Positions 7,124 to 60,142 of a stretch of 64,000 bases of DNA are shown here, in pieces; position 1 is the stretch's first letter; every line of letters starts with the position of its first letter. The DNA lies in assembly GCA_963662665.2 (NCBI GenBank), contig CAXXJS010000021.1:32001-96000 (forward strand), in the 5' to 3' direction. The notes beneath the pieces were generated by a model that was not told the origin of the DNA, searched no databases, and saw only the letters and a list, made by a program, of their open reading frames with translations. This stretch comes from Candidatus Latescibacterota bacterium. GTDB lineage: Bacteria > Latescibacterota > UBA2968 > GCA-2709665. The translations under genes and the position numbers were made by a program.

Positions 7124-8133
7124 TGCGTGCGGCAGAACAACTGGCCCCAAAGGTCGGGTTGGCGGGGGCGTGTCGGGCGTTGGGTGTGGCGCGTGCTTCG
7201 GTCTACCGTGCGCGTAAACCATCGCGATCGGGTCCTCGTAGCGCGCGCCCCTCGTCGCCACGTGCGCTTTCCCAAACCGAGCGCGCTGCCGTGCTGGACA
7301 TCCTGCACGAGGATCGCTTCGCAGACCGGGCCCCAGCGGCAGTCTACGCCACGTTGCTGGAGGAAGGACGGTATGTCTGCTCGATCCGCACGATGTATCG
7401 GGTACTGCACGACGCAGGGGAGGTGCGCCAGCGGCGACACCAGCGGCGTCATCCACGTCTCGAACCACCCCGGTTGATGGCCAGTGCGCCCAACCAGGTC
7501 TGGACGTGGGATATCACCAGGCTGCCAGGACCCCGCAAGTGGGTGACCTTTCCCCTCTACGTCGTACTGGATCTGTTCTCCCGCTATGTCGTGGCCTGGA
7601 TGGTCGCCGCAAGGGAGAGCGCCACAAACGCAAAGCGGCTTATTGCCAACGCGTGCCAGAAGCAGGGCATTCAACCCGGACAGCTGACGCTGCACCAGGA
7701 CCGTGGCGCACCGATGACGGCCAAGACGTTTTCGCAGTTGCTGATGGATCTCGACATCCTGGCCAGCTACTCTCGACCCCGCGTTTCCGATGACAACCCG
7801 TATTCTGAAAGCCAGTTCAAGACGCTCAAATACACCCCATCATACCCCGAGCGCTTCACCGATCCGCAAGAAGCGCGCACCTATTTGCAGGCCTTCTTTC
7901 ACTGGTACAACACAAAACACCGTCACAGCGGCCTGGGATTGCACACCCCCGACACCGTCCACTATGGGCTGACACAGCAGATTCAGGCCGTCAGACAAAC
8001 GGTGCTGGACCAGGCTTATCATAAACACCCTGAACGATTTGTTAAGGGGCATCCTCGTCCGCCAAGCGTTCCGGACGAAGTGTGGATAAACCAACCCGCG
8101 AATACCATCGAATGCCATCAGTTACTTCACTAA
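7120..8133 (+). CDS. IS3 transposase OrfB (DDE integrase core)
   Basis: PNQVWTWDIT, LDLFSRY, HQDRG, DNPYSESQFKTLKY. Confidence 0.92.
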   Translation: MMRAAEQLAPKVGLAGACRALGVARASVYRARKPSRSGPRSARPSSPRALSQTERAAVLDILHEDRFADRAPAAVYATLLEEGRYVCSIRTMYRVLHDAGEVRQRRHQRRHPRLEPPRLMASAPNQVWTWDITRLPGPRKWVTFPLYVVLDLFSRYVVAWMVAARESATNAKRLIANACQKQGIQPGQLTLHQDRGAPMTAKTFSQLLMDLDILASYSRPRVSDDNPYSESQFKTLKYTPSYPERFTDPQEARTYLQAFFHWYNTKHRHSGLGLHTPDTVHYGLTQQIQAVRQTVLDQAYHKHPERFVKGHPRPPSVPDEVWINQPANTIECHQLLH

Positions 8134-56556: not shown

Positions 56557-56759
56557 GGGTAAATTGCCCGTGTTGCGATTCCCTTCTCTCGCGGCGTACG
56601 CCTATCGGGCCTTGTGGTGTTGAAGGCCCTTTCGGACATTAGACGCCGCGGAAATCGGATCGGTTTCTGAAAAACCGTATTCGCGCAATCGTTTCTGTGG
56701 TTCGTTCTTGCGCCATCCATCCCGTCCGAAAGATAGATTCTACACAACATCGCAGCAAG

Positions 56760-56795
56760 AAAAGAAAAAACGCGCTGAAATCAGCGCGTTTTTTC
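56760..56795. terminator. Bidirectional intrinsic terminator, ending the redox operon
   Basis: GAAAAAACGCGCTGA-AA-TCAGCGCGTTTTTTC with A/T tracts on both sides. Confidence 0.8.
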
Positions 56796-56816
56796 GTTCG
56801 AATACACCGCATTTAT

Positions 56817-57803
56817 TCAGGGTACGCTTTTACCGAAGTTCCTGGCGAATTCCAGAAAGTCCGGAAAGTCGACCAGGCCGCTCCCGTCCAGGTCGAAGGC
56901 GGGATTGTCGGTGTTGAAAGCCTGGGCGAAGGCGATGAAGTCGCTGAACCCGATTTCGCCGTTATTGTCAAAGTCGGCCCGGGGATTGACGGAGACAACA
57001 ATGGCCGTTCCCGAAATTGCGACCGTGACGCTGCCGTTTTCCGGGTCGTCGCTGGAAATGGTAATGGTGCCGGAGAATGGGCCGCCCTCCGCGGGCGTGA
57101 AGGTGATGTCGACATTCGCACTGTCGCCCGGTGCGACCATAAGCTCCGTCAGGCTGAACGTGACGCCCTCGAGGTCGGACGCCAGATCTGTGATGCTGAG
57201 GTCGTCTCCGCCTGTATTTTTCACGACGAGGGTAACGGTCCTGGTTTCGCCGGCCGGAACGTCATCCCCGAAGTCGAGCGATGGAGTGGGGAGGCTGATT
57301 GCAGGCGGCGCGACGGTCAGCAATTCCCGGATACTCGTCGCCGCGGCGCCGAGACCCGAAGCGCCGCGCCCGATGTGACGGATGATCCCTTCCCGGTCCG
57401 CGACCAGCAACGTGTGGGTCCCGTGAGAACCCCTGATATTGCCTGCCTGCAGCAGGAGGGGAAACGTGATCGTGGATACTGACTGAAAACCCCTGAGCTG
57501 AGCCGGACTGCCATTGTAGATGTCAAGTCCCAGGACTGCAAAGCCGTCATCATCCTGGAACGCCTTCCAGATCTGCTGTTCTATGGACGGACCCGCCGCC
57601 CGGCAGGTGGGTCAGTTATGGCCCAGGTAATATAGAGCCAGAACACTGCCCTCGTAATTCGCAGAGCCATAGGTTTTCCCGTCCAGCCCAGTAAGTGAGA
57701 ACGTCGGTACCGCGTCACCGACACTCTGTGCATTCGCGGGTCCGAGGGGGTAAAACGCCAAGGCCAGTAGGAATACGACGCATGCAACGATTCGACCCAT
57801 CAC
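56817..57803 (-). CDS. Secreted selenoprotein: AhpC/TlpA-like domain (UxxC) + Ig-like (ASH/choice-of-anchor D) + twin EF-hand/dockerin-like domain
   Basis: ORFs 57612-57803 and 56817-57410 share one frame separated only by TGA at 57612-57614; read-through gives YYLGHN-U-PTCRAAGP, 329 codons including the stop. Confidence 0.85.
57591..57608 (-). promoter_or_regulatory. Candidate bacterial SECIS element
   Basis: Hairpin ACCUGCC-GGGC-GGCGGGU starting 3 nt after the UGA. Confidence 0.55.
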
Positions 57804-57834
57804 AGTCCTCCTTTGAGAAAATGTGTCGTCTGCG

Positions 57835-59418
57835 TCAGAAATAGGTTTTCAGACGCATCTCAAGGCCATTGAACGGCAACACCAGATAGCATGTCCCCGA
57901 TGTACACGCGGCGCCGCCTCGTCTGCGGCCGGCGAATACGAAGGCTTCGTATCGATCGAGAAATGCGACGTTGAGATTGACCGACAGCCAGGAACGTGTC
58001 CCGGTCTCCACCCGGTCCGGTGTGGCGCCGTCGTCCACTTCAAACGGATCGTTGGTACGATCCAGTATGAGGGCGCAGCCCACGCCCGAGGGATGCTGGA
58101 AGGAAAACTGGGTAAAGACGTCCAAGAACCCCGGCTCGGTTCGAGGCTGCCTGGCCGCGCGCCGGACCTGAAAATCCAGGCCCGCGACAGATCCGCAGGG
58201 CGTCGTGGATTCGATTCCCGCGCCGGCGATTCTGTGCTTCCGAATCCCCTTCAGTTCGTTTTTTCCCCAATCGACGAACAGGTTGGTGGAAATCGCGTGG
58301 TCCCCGCCATCAGACGGAAGGTCGACCTCCACGCTGAAATACCGCTCGTTGAAGGTCGTTGTGAAGCCGGGCGCGAGTTCGTTCTCACCCTTGCTTACAT
58401 TTGCCGTCAGCGTGCCCAGACCGAATATAGAATAGGTGGCTTCCGCCTGATAGCCCTTTTCCGTATCGGCAATCAGGGCATGGGTGGCCCGGTTGAGCAG
58501 GACGGCCGAGTGTTCGCGGACAAGGGATGGTGGATCGTTGAAACTGAAGGCGAATTTCTCGTAATCCTTGTATTCCAGGCTCAAGCCCAGGTTGGAAATT
58601 CCGGCGTTGGCCGAAATATAGAGAGCGCTGCCGTCCACGTGCACGTCTTTCAGCCCTGCGTATTCGGCGTAGACGGTTGCATAAGCTTCCGGAAGGCCGG
58701 ATGCTTCGATTGCGGGCGTGACGTCGAATTCCAGAAAACCCGACCATGTTCGGGTGGAGTCAAACCTGGAGGCGTGATGGTTGACGGCGGTGACACCGGT
58801 CTTCACTTGCTTGTGAGGCCGCAGCGAGACCTCGCCTCCGAGAATCCAGTCGTCACGTCGCGGTACATCACGAAGCGGATTACCCACCCGCACCGCAGGC
58901 GGAATATCACTAAATACGGGTCGCCCGATCAGGGCCTTTGCCTCGGCCCGAGACCCCGCCCAGGTGGCAATGCCACCCTCCAGGTCCCGGGAAGGCGAAT
59001 AACGCCGTCGGTATTGCCCGCTCTCCAGAATAACTCCGGGCAGATCGAAGGCCCTGATCGTGATGCCACGACCCAGGATGGCGTAGTAGTTGCCCGCAAC
59101 CAGCTCGACGGATCCCTGCGTCCAGCGCGCGTGTTTCTGGGAGATATGCACGATCTGGTATTCAACCTGTGACAGCGGCGAGCCCGGAGCCGTGCTGCGC
59201 CATGCATTGAAGATTTCCGCCCGGAATCCGGCCTGCAGACCGTGCCGTGTGTAATCGAGGTCGAACTGCTCATAGAGTGACGAAACCGCCAGCGAGTCCG
59301 AGCCCGGTACGCGTCCCCGCTGGATTTCGGTCAGGCTGGATGCGGTCACCTGAGCCACGGCCGGTTTCGAGGTCGGCAGCAGTAGGAGCATTGTCAGGCT
59401 ATTGATCAGCGCTCGCAT
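57835..59418 (-). CDS. DUF6029-like outer-membrane beta-barrel protein
   Basis: Signal peptide; GNYYAILGRG, EYKDY; C-terminal RGGAACTSGTC..PFNG..YF; start at 59418 inferred. Confidence 0.72.
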   Translation of the reverse strand: MRALINSLTMLLLLPTSKPAVAQVTASSLTEIQRGRVPGSDSLAVSSLYEQFDLDYTRHGLQAGFRAEIFNAWRSTAPGSPLSQVEYQIVHISQKHARWTQGSVELVAGNYYAILGRGITIRAFDLPGVILESGQYRRRYSPSRDLEGGIATWAGSRAEAKALIGRPVFSDIPPAVRVGNPLRDVPRRDDWILGGEVSLRPHKQVKTGVTAVNHHASRFDSTRTWSGFLEFDVTPAIEASGLPEAYATVYAEYAGLKDVHVDGSALYISANAGISNLGLSLEYKDYEKFAFSFNDPPSLVREHSAVLLNRATHALIADTEKGYQAEATYSIFGLGTLTANVSKGENELAPGFTTTFNERYFSVEVDLPSDGGDHAISTNLFVDWGKNELKGIRKHRIAGAGIESTTPCGSVAGLDFQVRRAARQPRTEPGFLDVFTQFSFQHPSGVGCALILDRTNDPFEVDDGATPDRVETGTRSWLSVNLNVAFLDRYEAFVFAGRRRGGAACTSGTCYLVLPFNGLEMRLKTYF

Positions 59419-59938
59419 CGGCCTTCGCCCCTTCGTCGGCGCCAGCATCCGGAAAAAGCGCCTCAACGGCCGTCAGCAACACTTCGGCGTTTTTCGAATT
59501 GTATCCGACCTGCCTCAGCGCAATCTCACCGTCCGGGGTGATCAGAAGCGTCGTCGGCAGGACGTTTACCTGCATTCGCCGCATCACCGCGCTGTCGGAG
59601 TCGAGGGCGACGGGGAAATTGACCCGTCGCGCCCTGAGAAAGGGTTTCACCCGGTTCTGCCCACGCGGACCGTCCACGTTGACGCCAAGAACCGTGAGTC
59701 CGGATTTGCCGTATTTCTCGTGAATCTTCTGGAGCTTGGGCATTGCCTTGACGCAAGGTTTGCAGTAGGTCGCCCAGAAATCCAGAAGCACCGGCCCGTT
59801 TTTCAGCAGGGTCTTCAGGTTGACCCGTTCGCCCTGAAGGTTCCGGAGGTTGAAGTCTGGGGCTGAGGCGGCGTTCACAGTTGCGACGCCCAGGGTAATC
59901 GAGGCTGCAAAAGCCAGCGATTGAAATAGCGATTTCAT
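59399..59938 (-). CDS. TlpA-family thiol:disulfide oxidoreductase, exported
   Basis: Signal peptide; APDF, DFWATYCKPC, LPTT. Confidence 0.92.
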   Translation of the reverse strand: MKSLFQSLAFAASITLGVATVNAASAPDFNLRNLQGERVNLKTLLKNGPVLLDFWATYCKPCVKAMPKLQKIHEKYGKSGLTVLGVNVDGPRGQNRVKPFLRARRVNFPVALDSDSAVMRRMQVNVLPTTLLITPDGEIALRQVGYNSKNAEVLLTAVEALFPDAGADEGAKADASADQ

Positions 59939-60046
59939 CGTCGCAATCCTTCCCGTTTTCCGCAGTGGTTTGAAGGTCTTGCAATTTATCACCGGGAGCA
60001 GAAAATAGTTGACGTCTATTGCGCCTGCTACGGCGGAGAGGAACTT

Positions 60047-60142
60047 GCCCAAACGGGGGCGCTGAGCTTGTCGAAGCGCCCCCGTTCGGGCGCGTTATTT
60101 CCTTTGCAGACCCTTCGACAAGCTCAGCGAACGGCTCAGGGT
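60047..60142. repeat. REP-like palindromic element
   Basis: CGCTGAGCTTGTCGAAG (60060-60076) and its inverse CTTCGACAAGCTCAGCG (60113-60129). Confidence 0.65.

What the first reader, a model, noticed from the sequence alone, without database searches (positions are those of the whole stretch)
56817..57803. Hidden selenoprotein missed by the ORF caller (UGA in UxxC, SECIS-like hairpin)
Seen: the 63-aa ORF stops at TGA 57612-57614, exactly where the first Cys of a CxxC motif belongs (LALYYLGHN-TGA-PTC). The same frame continues without a stop through GLDIYNG, TFPLL and LVADREGIIR into the Ig-like and EF-hand domains. A 7-bp hairpin with a G-rich loop begins 3 nt after the UGA. Established: UxxC plus a downstream stem-loop is the bacterial Sec signature. 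Inference: a signal-peptide-bearing selenoprotein with a surface-sorting-like domain, which is an unusual location for Sec.
Basis: partly seen in the sequence, partly recalled or inferred. Interest (0 to 1): 0.8.

Follow-up and report, generated by a model that had tools for sequence, protein, structure and literature searches.

The report
Missed secreted selenoprotein, thioredoxin-fold UxxC
The "stop" in the middle of this gene is almost certainly a selenocysteine codon in the active site of a secreted thiol-disulfide enzyme, which gene callers cut in two in every related genome examined; it is a new example of a known kind of selenoprotein.

Summary
The minus-strand frame 57800..56817 is open apart from one TGA (57612-57614). 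That TGA sits where the first Cys of the CxxC motif of an AhpC/TSA-redoxin domain belongs.

- **Conservation:** The same codon is TGA in 17 of 17 full-length orthologues from different Latescibacterota-type genomes, down to about 40% protein identity. It is also TGA in 4 of 4 tandem paralogues.
- **Coding on both sides:** Third-codon-position change dominates on both flanks of the TGA.
- **Cys homologues:** 146 of 148 more distant homologues carry Cys at this position.
- **TGA is a normal stop here:** 25 of 46 long ORFs in the window end in TGA, including this gene.
- **SECIS:** A hairpin places GGUC at nucleotides 22-25 after the U of UGA, the geometry of the E. coli fdhF SECIS. 20 of 22 family sites pass a simple descriptor, against 13 of 1830 TGA triplets in the window. 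No compensatory pair changes support any fold.
- **Not checked:** Sec machinery (selA/B/C/D).

The protein has a signal peptide, a Sec-redoxin domain, an Ig-like "choice-of-anchor D" domain and a dockerin-like tail. It fits the published "Prx-like thiol:disulfide oxidoreductase (UxxC)" selenoprotein family. The domain architecture and the lineage appear undescribed.

The parts
56817..57800 (-). Full-length selenoprotein gene. ATG at 57800, Sec codon 63, 327 residues, true stop TGA at 56817-56819.
   Evidence: Read-through translation. tblastn matches to relatives start at query residue 2, the Met, and the L001-L011 reads begin at that Met. AlphaFold2 model has mean pLDDT 86.9.
57807..57812 (-). 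Shine-Dalgarno-like AGGAGG, 6 nt before ATG 57800.
   Evidence: Read directly from the sequence.
57729..57800 (-). Predicted Sec-type signal peptide (residues 1-24, ...PANA|QS).
   Evidence: Judged by eye from the sequence. The model shows an N-terminal helix 2-15 followed by a low-confidence linker. No signal-peptide predictor was available.
57612..57614 (-). In-frame TGA read as selenocysteine (U63; motif LGHN-U-PTC).
   Evidence: TGA in 17 of 17 orthologous loci and 4 of 4 paralogues. Cys in 146 of 148 homologues. Aligns with the first Cys of CxxC in solved thioredoxin-family chains.
57366..57722 (-). Thioredoxin-fold redoxin domain (AhpC/TSA-Redoxin; TlpA/ResA-like).
   Evidence: Pfam PF00578 at 38.8 bits and PF08534 at 27.1 bits. 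Foldseek hits 2ls5 and ResA with target TM 0.78-0.85.
57585..57599 (-). Best SECIS candidate (H2). Pairs G16-C30, [C17 bulged], G18-C29, G19-U28, C20-G27, G21-C26, with loop G22 G23 U24 C25, counted from the U of UGA.
   Evidence: Compared with E. coli fdhF read and with the numbering in PMC8659212. Descriptor test. Synonymous-site conservation. No covariation.
57591..57608 (-). It overlaps H2 and the two are mutually exclusive.
   Evidence: RNAalifold consensus in both clades. 86% of cells pair, with 0 compensatory pairs.
57006..57302 (-). Ig-like 'choice-of-anchor D' / DUF1573 domain.
   Evidence: NCBIfam NF012200 at 49 bits (cut-off 45). Pfam PF22544 and PF07610. Beta-sandwich in the model.
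56832..56978 (-). Dockerin-like C-terminal module with two DxDxDG-type calcium loops.
   Evidence: Pfam EF-hand_1 at 26.5 bits. NCBIfam dockerin_GC at 24.8 bits, below the cut-off of 29. Profile hits to cellulosomal dockerin chains 2y3n_B and 4wi0_B.
56764..56795 (-). Intrinsic terminator: 14-bp stem followed by a T run, 22 nt after the stop.
57835..59466 (-). Upstream operon gene: DUF6029 protein, a likely outer-membrane beta-barrel.
   Evidence: Pfam PF19494 at 50.1 bits. Syntenic in L001-L011. DUF6029 is likened to Wzi-type beta-barrels in PMC9603273 (passages).
59399..60052 (-). Upstream operon gene: TlpA/ResA-like thiol-disulfide oxidoreductase with an ordinary CKPC motif.
   Evidence: Pfam AhpC-TSA at 88 bits. 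NCBIfam ResA subfamily model at 103.7 bits, below its cut-off of 170. Syntenic in L001-L011.

Best explanation
This is one gene of 327 codons for a secreted selenoprotein. UGA at codon 63 is recoded to selenocysteine, presumably by SelB bound to a hairpin that starts about 11-12 nt downstream.

Sec is the nucleophilic first residue of a UxxC redox motif. It sits at the N-terminus of helix alpha-1 of a TlpA/ResA-like thioredoxin fold.

After Sec-pathway export, the enzyme would act as a thiol-disulfide (selenylsulfide) oxidoreductase in the cell envelope or at the cell surface. An Ig-like 'choice-of-anchor D' domain and a dockerin-like calcium-binding tail would hold it there. The gene is co-transcribed with a Cys-type TlpA-like redoxin and a DUF6029 putative outer-membrane barrel.

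**Shown:** the conserved in-frame TGA, coding selection on both sides, Cys in homologues, the fold and domain order, the synteny, and a hairpin with E. coli-like geometry.

**Inferred:** actual Se insertion, which hairpin is the SECIS, the location of the protein, its substrate and its electron donor.
For: - **TGA conservation.** 17 of 17 full-length orthologous loci from 17 different genomes carry TGA at the aligned codon. Eleven read LGHN-U-PTC and six read VGYN-U-GTC, the latter at only 37-41% identity to the window protein.
- **Paralogues.** 4 of 4 tandem paralogues (L002-L005) read LGHN-U-[ND]LC.
- **Coding selection on both flanks.** In clade A1, differences at codon positions 1/2/3 are 256/184/804 upstream and 64/0/139 in the 19 codons between the TGA and the first internal start.
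- **Database calls.** 20 of 20 aligned database proteins begin downstream of the TGA. None of the 44 hits covers more than 78% of the query.
- **Cys homologues.** Of the best 150 of 2097 homologues of the redoxin domain, 148 were aligned. 146 have Cys at the U position and 148 have the second Cys.
- **Cys forms of the same architecture.** P0051 and P0058 have the same redoxin, Ig-like and dockerin-like architecture with Cys.
- **TGA is a normal stop.** 25 of 46 long ORFs in the window end in TGA. These include nadA, folP, galU, holA and tilS and this gene itself, which is followed by a terminator.
- **Fold.** In the model (pLDDT 86.9), strand 53-59 is followed by helix 64-81, so U63 sits at the helix N-cap as in CxxC thioredoxin folds. 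The nearest solved folds are 2ls5 and ResA.
- **SECIS geometry.** Nucleotides 20-26 after U1 read CGGGUCC in 20 of 22 family sequences. GGT is only 14-24% of Gly codons in these genes but is the codon at +7 in 20 of 22.
- **SECIS descriptor.** An E. coli-type descriptor (G23 and U24 in a 3-5-nt loop closed by at least 4 bp) is passed by 20 of 22 family sites and by the fdhF control. Only 13 of 1830 TGA triplets in the window pass it.
- **Synonymous variability.** In clade A it falls to 0.121 just after the TGA, against a gene mean of 0.274. That is within the lowest 4.3% of windows.
Against: - **Sec machinery unseen.** No selA, selB or selD appears among 43 window ORFs. No tRNA was found in the window, and no tRNA-Sec in 43 fetched loci.
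- **No covariation.** No compensatory base-pair change supports either hairpin. H1 pairs in 86% of cells and H2 in 85%, and neither exceeds shuffles.
- **Registers differ.** The H2-type hairpins of the three groups use different pairing registers.
- **Descriptor failures.** L007 (U24 to A) and L012 (U24 to C) fail the descriptor.
- **Fold energy is ordinary.** The single-sequence fold is no better than shuffles, z = -0.01.
- **Weak signal in clade B.** The synonymous dip there is not notable (0.138 against 0.194; 20.7% of windows are as low).
- **Protein constraint overlaps the RNA signal.** Part of CGGGUCC is forced by the conserved Gly-Pro.
- **No Rfam match**. From memory, Rfam holds no general bacterial SECIS model.
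Confidence: 0.88

Rival explanations
1. UGA is read through without selenium. A near-cognate or suppressor tRNA inserts Cys, Trp or Gly in a lineage that has no Sec machinery. The hairpin only slows termination.
For: Sec machinery was not seen in any sequence held. No covariation proves a SelB-type SECIS.
Against: - TGA is the commonest ordinary stop in the window, ending 25 of 46 long ORFs, so general suppression would be costly.
- The codon sits exactly at the catalytic Cys position, which is the classic Sec/Cys exchange.
- If Cys were the product, a TGY codon would be expected to replace TGA at least once among 22 sequences. It never does.
- The GGUC loop lies at the same distance from UGA as in E. 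coli fdhF.
Confidence: 0.06
2. The TGA is a true stop, as currently annotated. This would give a 62-residue secreted peptide plus a separately initiated Ig-like/dockerin-like protein.
For: Public gene calls of relatives are 197-241 aa 'choice-of-anchor D domain-containing protein' entries that start after the TGA.
Against: - The called starts differ from genome to genome, falling at six different aligned start positions in the family alignment (columns 69, 88-91, 109, 112, 118 and 136).
- The 19 codons between the TGA and the first possible start evolve as coding sequence (64/0/139 differences at positions 1/2/3).
- The split would cut a single thioredoxin fold between strand beta-1 and helix alpha-1.
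- Cys homologues are uninterrupted.
Confidence: 0.04
3. The TGA is a nonsense mutation, pseudogene or sequencing error in this one genome.
For: None beyond the bare presence of a stop codon.
Against: The same TGA is present in 21 of 21 relatives from independent assemblies, several of them complete chromosomes. The reading frame is intact on both sides.
Confidence: 0.01

Closest known systems
Prx-like thiol:disulfide oxidoreductase selenoprotein family (pfam00578, UxxC/UxxU). Predicted in the Sargasso Sea and GOS surveys and listed in the reviews PMC9312934 and PMC13188914.
   Same: - AhpC/TSA (PF00578) domain above the gathering score.
- Thioredoxin-like UxxC instead of the peroxiredoxin TxxU.
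- Cys homologues at the Sec position.
- A hairpin with a small G-containing apical loop after the UGA.

(passages read)
   Different: - This protein is a secreted multidomain form: signal peptide, Ig-like choice-of-anchor D domain and dockerin-like tail.
- The local motif is G[HY]N-U-xxC.
- It comes from Latescibacterota-type genomes.
- I did not compare it with the family's reference sequence (WP_010940744.1 is named in the reviews, but I did not fetch it). Membership therefore rests on the published definition, not on orthology.
TlpA / ResA / DsbE-type extracytoplasmic thiol-disulfide oxidoreductases, and the B. thetaiotaomicron putative protein disulfide isomerase 2ls5.
   Same: Same fold (Foldseek target TM 0.78-0.85, rmsd about 2.1 A). 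The U aligns with the first Cys of their CxxC. All are exported proteins.
   Different: - Sec replaces Cys.
- The motif is GHN-U-PTC rather than W-C-xx-C.
- The NCBIfam ResA subfamily model scores 28.1 bits against a cut-off of 170, so this is not a ResA orthologue.
- Anchor domains are added.
Cys-type homologues with surface-sorting tails. These are redoxin + Por_Secre_tail (T9SS C-terminal domain) proteins of about 260 aa, and P0051/P0058 (redoxin + 2 Ig-like + dockerin-like).
   Same: Same redoxin subfamily motif, [FL]G[YHN]xCxxC. All have a secreted or surface-directed architecture.
   Different: They use Cys. 7 of the 16 homologues scanned carry a T9SS sorting domain instead of the Ig-like/dockerin-like tail.
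E. coli fdhF SECIS: 17-nt upper stem-loop, nt 15-31, U17 bulge, G23 and U24 in the loop.
   Same: In the window, G16-C30, a bulge at position 17, four further pairs and the loop G22 G23 U24 C25 fall at the same numbered positions as in fdhF.
   Different: - The bulged base is C, not U.
- 15-31 is not paired.
- Clade B and the paralogues form hairpins of other registers around the same GGGUCC.
- Binding to any SelB is untested.

Membership tests
Bacterial selenoprotein gene (SelB/SECIS-dependent UGA recoding) | In-frame UGA conserved in orthologues, with coding conservation on both sides. | tested here: met
   TGA in 17 of 17 orthologous loci and 4 of 4 paralogues. Third-position bias on both flanks.
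Bacterial selenoprotein gene (SelB/SECIS-dependent UGA recoding) | Homologues carry Cys at the Sec position. | tested here: met
   146 of 148 aligned homologues have Cys and 2 have Ala.
Bacterial selenoprotein gene (SelB/SECIS-dependent UGA recoding) | SECIS hairpin just downstream of the UGA, with a small apical loop containing G at the right distance. | tested here: inconclusive
   20 of 22 family sites pass an fdhF-type descriptor, against 13 of 1830 TGA triplets in the window. There are 0 compensatory pairs and fold z = -0.01. bSECISearch was not available.
Bacterial selenoprotein gene (SelB/SECIS-dependent UGA recoding) | The genome encodes selA, selB, selC (tRNA-Sec) and selD. | not testable with these tools
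   None found in the 64-kb window or in the fetched loci.
Bacterial selenoprotein gene (SelB/SECIS-dependent UGA recoding) | Selenium is incorporated into the protein. | not testable with these tools
   Needs 75Se labelling or mass spectrometry.
Prx-like thiol:disulfide oxidoreductase selenoproteins (pfam00578, UxxC) | PF00578 domain containing the Sec. | tested here: met
   AhpC-TSA at 38.8 bits (cut-off 26), residues 28-119, spanning U64 of P0001.
Prx-like thiol:disulfide oxidoreductase selenoproteins (pfam00578, UxxC) | Thioredoxin-like UxxC motif rather than peroxiredoxin TxxU. | tested here: met
   U-P-T-C. U-G-T-C and U-[ND]-L-C in relatives.
Peroxiredoxin proper (Prx/BCP) | Peroxidatic Cys/Sec in a PxxxTxxC(U) context. 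| tested here: not met
   The motif is GHN-U-PTC. BCP structures match less well (target TM 0.69-0.72) than ResA (0.81-0.85). The PxxxTxxC motif is recalled from memory.
ResA/TlpA orthologue | Score above the NCBIfam cut-off of the ResA or TlpA models. | tested here: not met
   ResA subfamily model NF002854 at 28.1 bits, cut-off 170. The fold similarity is real.
Choice-of-anchor D domain proteins (NF012200) | Domain model above its cut-off. | tested here: met
   49 bits against a cut-off of 45, residues 164-255.
Dockerin module | Duplicated calcium-binding loop-helix repeat recognised by dockerin models. | tested here: inconclusive
   NCBIfam dockerin_GC at 24.8 bits, below its cut-off of 29. 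Pfam EF-hand_1 at 26.5 bits against 25.4. Profile hits to dockerin-bearing chains 2y3n_B (3.4e-5) and 4wi0_B (8.8e-4). No cohesin partner was sought.

The most novel reading that the evidence does not exclude
This may be the first selenoenzyme built as a docking-module cargo. A Sec-active-site redoxin would be exported and plugged, through a dockerin-like tail, into a cell-surface or outer-membrane assembly, perhaps the co-transcribed DUF6029 barrel. It would be kept as Sec, never Cys, across a whole clade of Latescibacterota-type bacteria and duplicated in tandem in some of them.

That would also make this candidate phylum a Sec user with an E. coli-type SECIS. My literature searches found no report of either point (the reviews were read only in passages).
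Probability: 0.3. Interest if true: 0.6.

Novelty: new member of a known kind. Interest (0 to 1): 0.45.

Why it matters
**Annotation.** In every related genome examined, the gene is recorded only as a truncated 'choice-of-anchor D domain-containing protein' without its catalytic domain. The redox function and the selenium dependence are therefore invisible in current annotation. NCBIfam 20.0 has no model that recognises this family.

**Biology.** The finding points to selenium use in a poorly known, uncultured lineage. It also points to an extracytoplasmic, probably tethered, Sec-based thiol-disulfide enzyme. Strict retention of TGA in 22 of 22 sequences (17 other genomes plus the window; 4 are tandem paralogues), with Cys only in distant homologues, suggests a real catalytic advantage of Sec in that setting.

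**Practical use.** The E. coli-like SECIS geometry makes the gene a candidate for direct expression tests in E. coli.

Tried and rejected
- **Rfam.** The gathering scan of the window found 0 hits. A permissive scan of 57450-57700 gave only 3 chance-level matches on the other strand.
- **Covariation.** RNAalifold and pair counts for H1 and H2 found no compensatory changes, so they cannot choose between the two hairpins.
- **Other selenoprotein genes.** A crude scan for other UxxC/CxxU read-through candidates in the window and L001-L018 gave 203 mostly spurious hits. Nothing convincing appeared beyond this family (one search timed out).
- **tRNA-Sec.** ARAGORN found no tRNA in the window. In the 43 loci it found only tRNA-Thr and tRNA-Ala.
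- **Sec machinery in the window.** NCBIfam on 43 ORFs gave no selA, selB or selD.
- **Literature.**
  - Latescibacter* + selenocysteine gave 4 papers, none relevant in the passages read.
  - dockerin + selenoprotein gave 2 irrelevant papers.
  - Latescibacter* + dockerin gave 2 irrelevant papers.
- **DUF6029 neighbour.** It has no sequence relative among solved structures.
- **Clade B synteny.** It does not share the TlpA-DUF6029 context, so that operon is not a defining feature of the family.
- **Global TGA reassignment.** Rejected because TGA ends 25 of 46 long ORFs in the window.
Full report
**1. The observation**

On the minus strand, the listed 63-aa ORF (57803..57612) ends ...LALYYLGHN at TGA 57612-57614. 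Read with TGA as a residue, the frame runs on without another stop to TGA 56817-56819.

Pfam places one AhpC/TSA domain (38.8 bits, cut-off 26) and one Redoxin domain across the TGA, at residues 28-146. An Ig-like domain follows at 168-266, and EF-hand-type matches at 276-324. NCBIfam names the Ig-like part choice-of-anchor D (49 bits, cut-off 45). It gives a near-threshold dockerin_GC match to the tail (24.8 bits, cut-off 29).

The 7-bp hairpin ACCUGCC-GGGC-GGCGGGU begins 3 nt after the UGA, as described.

The likely start is ATG 57800, 6 nt after AGGAGG. tblastn matches to relatives start at query residue 2, the Met, and the L001-L011 reads begin at that Met. A strong intrinsic terminator at 56795-56764 follows the final TGA.

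**2. Is the TGA a conserved feature?**

*Database proteins.* A search of 5.8 billion predicted proteins returned 44 hits. None covers more than 78% of the query. All 20 family members I aligned begin at various internal Met/Val/Leu codons downstream of the TGA. Gene callers have therefore truncated the gene in every one of those lineages.

Seventeen of them (L001-L013 and L015-L018) come from 17 different MAGs or chromosomes labelled Latescibacterota, Gemmatimonadota or 'uncultured bacterium'. These 17 cover the whole protein. L014 is cut by its contig end and was not counted.

In 17 of 17 the aligned codon is TGA.
- Eleven read LGHN-U-PTC.
- Six read VGYN-U-GTC. These six are only 37-41% identical to the window protein overall.

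*Tandem paralogues.* Four genomes (L002-L005) carry a tandem paralogue just downstream. In 4 of 4 this reads LGHN-U-[ND]LC. The two residues inside the motif change (PT, GT, DL, NL), but the TGA never does.

*Coding selection.* Differences among clade-A1 sequences fall at codon positions 1/2/3 as follows:

| Segment | Position 1 | Position 2 | Position 3 |
|---|---|---|---|
| 34 codons upstream of the TGA | 256 | 184 | 804 |
| 19 codons between the TGA and the first internal start | 64 | 0 | 139 |

Both flanks are therefore translated in the frame of the TGA.

**3. Is TGA otherwise a stop here?**

Yes. 25 of 46 long non-overlapping ORFs in the window end in TGA. These include ORFs identified as nadA, folP, galU, holA and tilS. 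The gene itself ends in TGA. Global reassignment is excluded.

**4. Cys homologues**

An exhaustive HMMER search with the 139-residue redoxin domain found 2097 proteins at E <= 0.001 and 197 at E <= 1e-10. I aligned 148 of the 150 listed. I left out P0192, a 1280-aa multi-repeat protein, and P0022, a truncated family member.

The residue under U is Cys in 146 and Ala in 2. The second Cys is present in 148 of 148. The local motif is [FL]G[YHN]xCxxC.

Pfam was run on 16 of these.
- Two (P0051 and P0058, 435 and 440 aa) share the redoxin, 2 Ig-like and dockerin-like architecture, with Cys.
- Seven are proteins of about 260 aa made of a redoxin domain plus a T9SS C-terminal sorting domain.

The family at large is therefore a secreted, surface-directed redoxin, and the window gene is its Sec form.

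**5. Fold**

AlphaFold2 on a 24-row alignment gave mean pLDDT 86.9. Strand 53-59 is followed directly by helix 64-81. This puts U63 at the helix N-terminus, the canonical position of the nucleophilic Cys in thioredoxin folds. The rest of the model is a beta-sandwich (174-267) and a two-helix tail.

Foldseek finds 2ls5 (a putative protein disulfide isomerase of B. thetaiotaomicron), ResA and DsbE-type proteins, with target TM 0.78-0.85. BCP peroxiredoxins match less well, at 0.69-0.72. By sequence, U aligns with the first Cys of WCxxC in 2ls5, 3hdc and 3kcm.

**6. The SECIS question**

No pair shows a compensatory change, and 86% of cells pair.

*The E. coli reference.* I read the E. coli fdhF sequence. 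A review gives its numbering: a 17-nt upper stem-loop at nt 15-31, 11 nt after UGA, with U17 bulged and G23 and U24 in the loop (PMC8659212, passages read).

*Hairpin H2.* The window can form an isomorphic element: G16-C30, C17 bulged, G18-C29, G19-U28, C20-G27, G21-C26, with loop G22 G23 U24 C25. H2 overlaps H1, and the two cannot form together.

*Conservation of the loop region.* Nucleotides 20-26 read CGGGUCC in 20 of 22 family sequences. The exceptions are L007 and L012. GGT is only 14-24% of Gly codons in these genes but is the codon at +7 in 20 of 22. The preceding codon ends in G in 22 of 22.

*Descriptor test.* The descriptor requires G23 and U24 inside a 3-5-nt loop closed by at least 4 consecutive pairs. 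It is passed by 20 of 22 family sites and by the fdhF control, against 13 of 1830 TGA triplets in the window.

*Synonymous variability.* In clade A it is 0.121 in the nine codons after the TGA, against 0.274 for the gene. That is within the lowest 4.3% of windows. In clade B the dip is not notable, 0.138 against 0.194.

*Evidence against.*
- The H2-type hairpins of the three groups use different registers.
- H2 in the fdhF register pairs in 85% of cells, with no compensatory change.
- The single-sequence fold is no better than shuffles.
- Gly-Pro conservation forces part of the motif.

*Reading.* My reading is an inference from the E. coli model. H1's 5' arm lies inside the ribosomal mRNA channel when UGA is in the A site, which leaves H2 free to present GGUC to SelB. 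Either hairpin, or both in turn, remains possible.

**7. Context**

In L001-L011 the order is the same as in the window: unknown ORF, Gfo/Idh/MocA oxidoreductase, TlpA-like redoxin (CKPC), DUF6029, the selenoprotein, an optional paralogue, tilS, ftsH.

The DUF6029 gene ends 34 nt before the selenoprotein start. One paper likens DUF6029 to Wzi-type outer-membrane barrels (PMC9603273, passages read).

Clade B has a different neighbourhood. It includes a 604-aa redoxin + Cu2_monoox_C protein. The operon is therefore not a defining feature of the family.

The dockerin-like module alone matched 25 further loci in Latescibacterota and Planctomycetota. It lies at the extreme C-terminus in 17 of them, and is N-terminal or internal in 8. 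That fits a docking module rather than a cleaved sorting signal.

**8. What was not checked**

Sec machinery was not found. There is none in the window, and no tRNA-Sec in the fetched loci.

**9. Comparison with the literature**

The reviews define 'Prx-like thiol:disulfide oxidoreductase' selenoproteins as pfam00578 with UxxC/UxxU (PMC9312934 and PMC13188914, passages read). The Sargasso Sea paper describes them as distant Prx homologues with a thioredoxin-like UXXC (PMC1088965, passages read). This gene meets that definition.

Secreted-type selenoproteins, such as a trypsin-like protease and MucD, were already predicted in the GOS survey (PMC2398784, passages read).

My searches found no paper that links Latescibacteria to selenocysteine or dockerins to selenoproteins. 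NCBIfam 20.0 has no specific model for this family.

**10. Verdict**

This is a real, conserved selenoprotein gene that annotation has missed. It is a new member of a known selenoprotein kind, with an undescribed secreted and tethered architecture. Confidence that the UGA encodes Sec is about 0.88. The remaining doubt rests on the unseen Sec machinery.

Noticed in passing
L002:7035-8009, L003:7032-8006, L004 and L005 (TGA at 7212, 7209, 7216, 7214): A tandem paralogue of the selenoprotein lies directly downstream in four genomes. It also has TGA at the active site (LGHN-U-[ND]LC). The window itself has no such copy; tilS follows directly.
   Followed up: partly
window 57555-57570 (-): A third, perfect 6-bp hairpin, CUGGAA-GGCG-UUCCAG, lies 42 nt after the UGA. 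It is conserved in clade A and the paralogues and absent in clade B. It coincides with the lowest synonymous variability in clade A (0.05 for the window starting at codon +12). Its role is unknown.
   Followed up: partly
L013:8057-9868, L012:8894-10747: In clade B, a protein of about 600 aa lies two genes downstream of the selenoprotein. It fuses a redoxin domain to a copper type II monooxygenase C-terminal domain.
   Followed up: no
L019-L043: The dockerin-like double calcium-loop module recurs on many unrelated proteins of Latescibacterota, Pirellulaceae, Phycisphaerales and Gemmataceae MAGs. It is C-terminal in 17 of 25 and N-terminal or internal in 8 of 25. No cohesin-like partner was looked for.
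   Followed up: partly
L002, L003, L010 versus L001 and L004-L009: MAGs titled Gemmatimonadota carry a locus that is syntenic with, and as similar to the window protein (83-85%) as, the loci of MAGs titled Latescibacterota. One of the two phylum labels is probably wrong.
   Followed up: no
window 79-20258 (+): The left part of the window holds very large ORFs (1106, 1505 and 1765 aa) with weak matches to anti-phage models: MADS3 AAA ATPase and the DUF499 anti-phage protein, all far below cut-off. This may be a defence island.
   Followed up: no
window 56697-57482 (+) and 57823-59172 (+): Long ORFs (261 and 449 aa) lie on the strand opposite the selenoprotein and DUF6029 genes. They are most likely shadow ORFs of GC-rich coding DNA.
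   Followed up: no
window 59399-59466: The listed DUF6029 ORF start overlaps the end of the TlpA-like gene by 68 nt. The true DUF6029 start is probably an internal codon. Relatives align from residue 2 to residue 32 onward.
   Followed up: no
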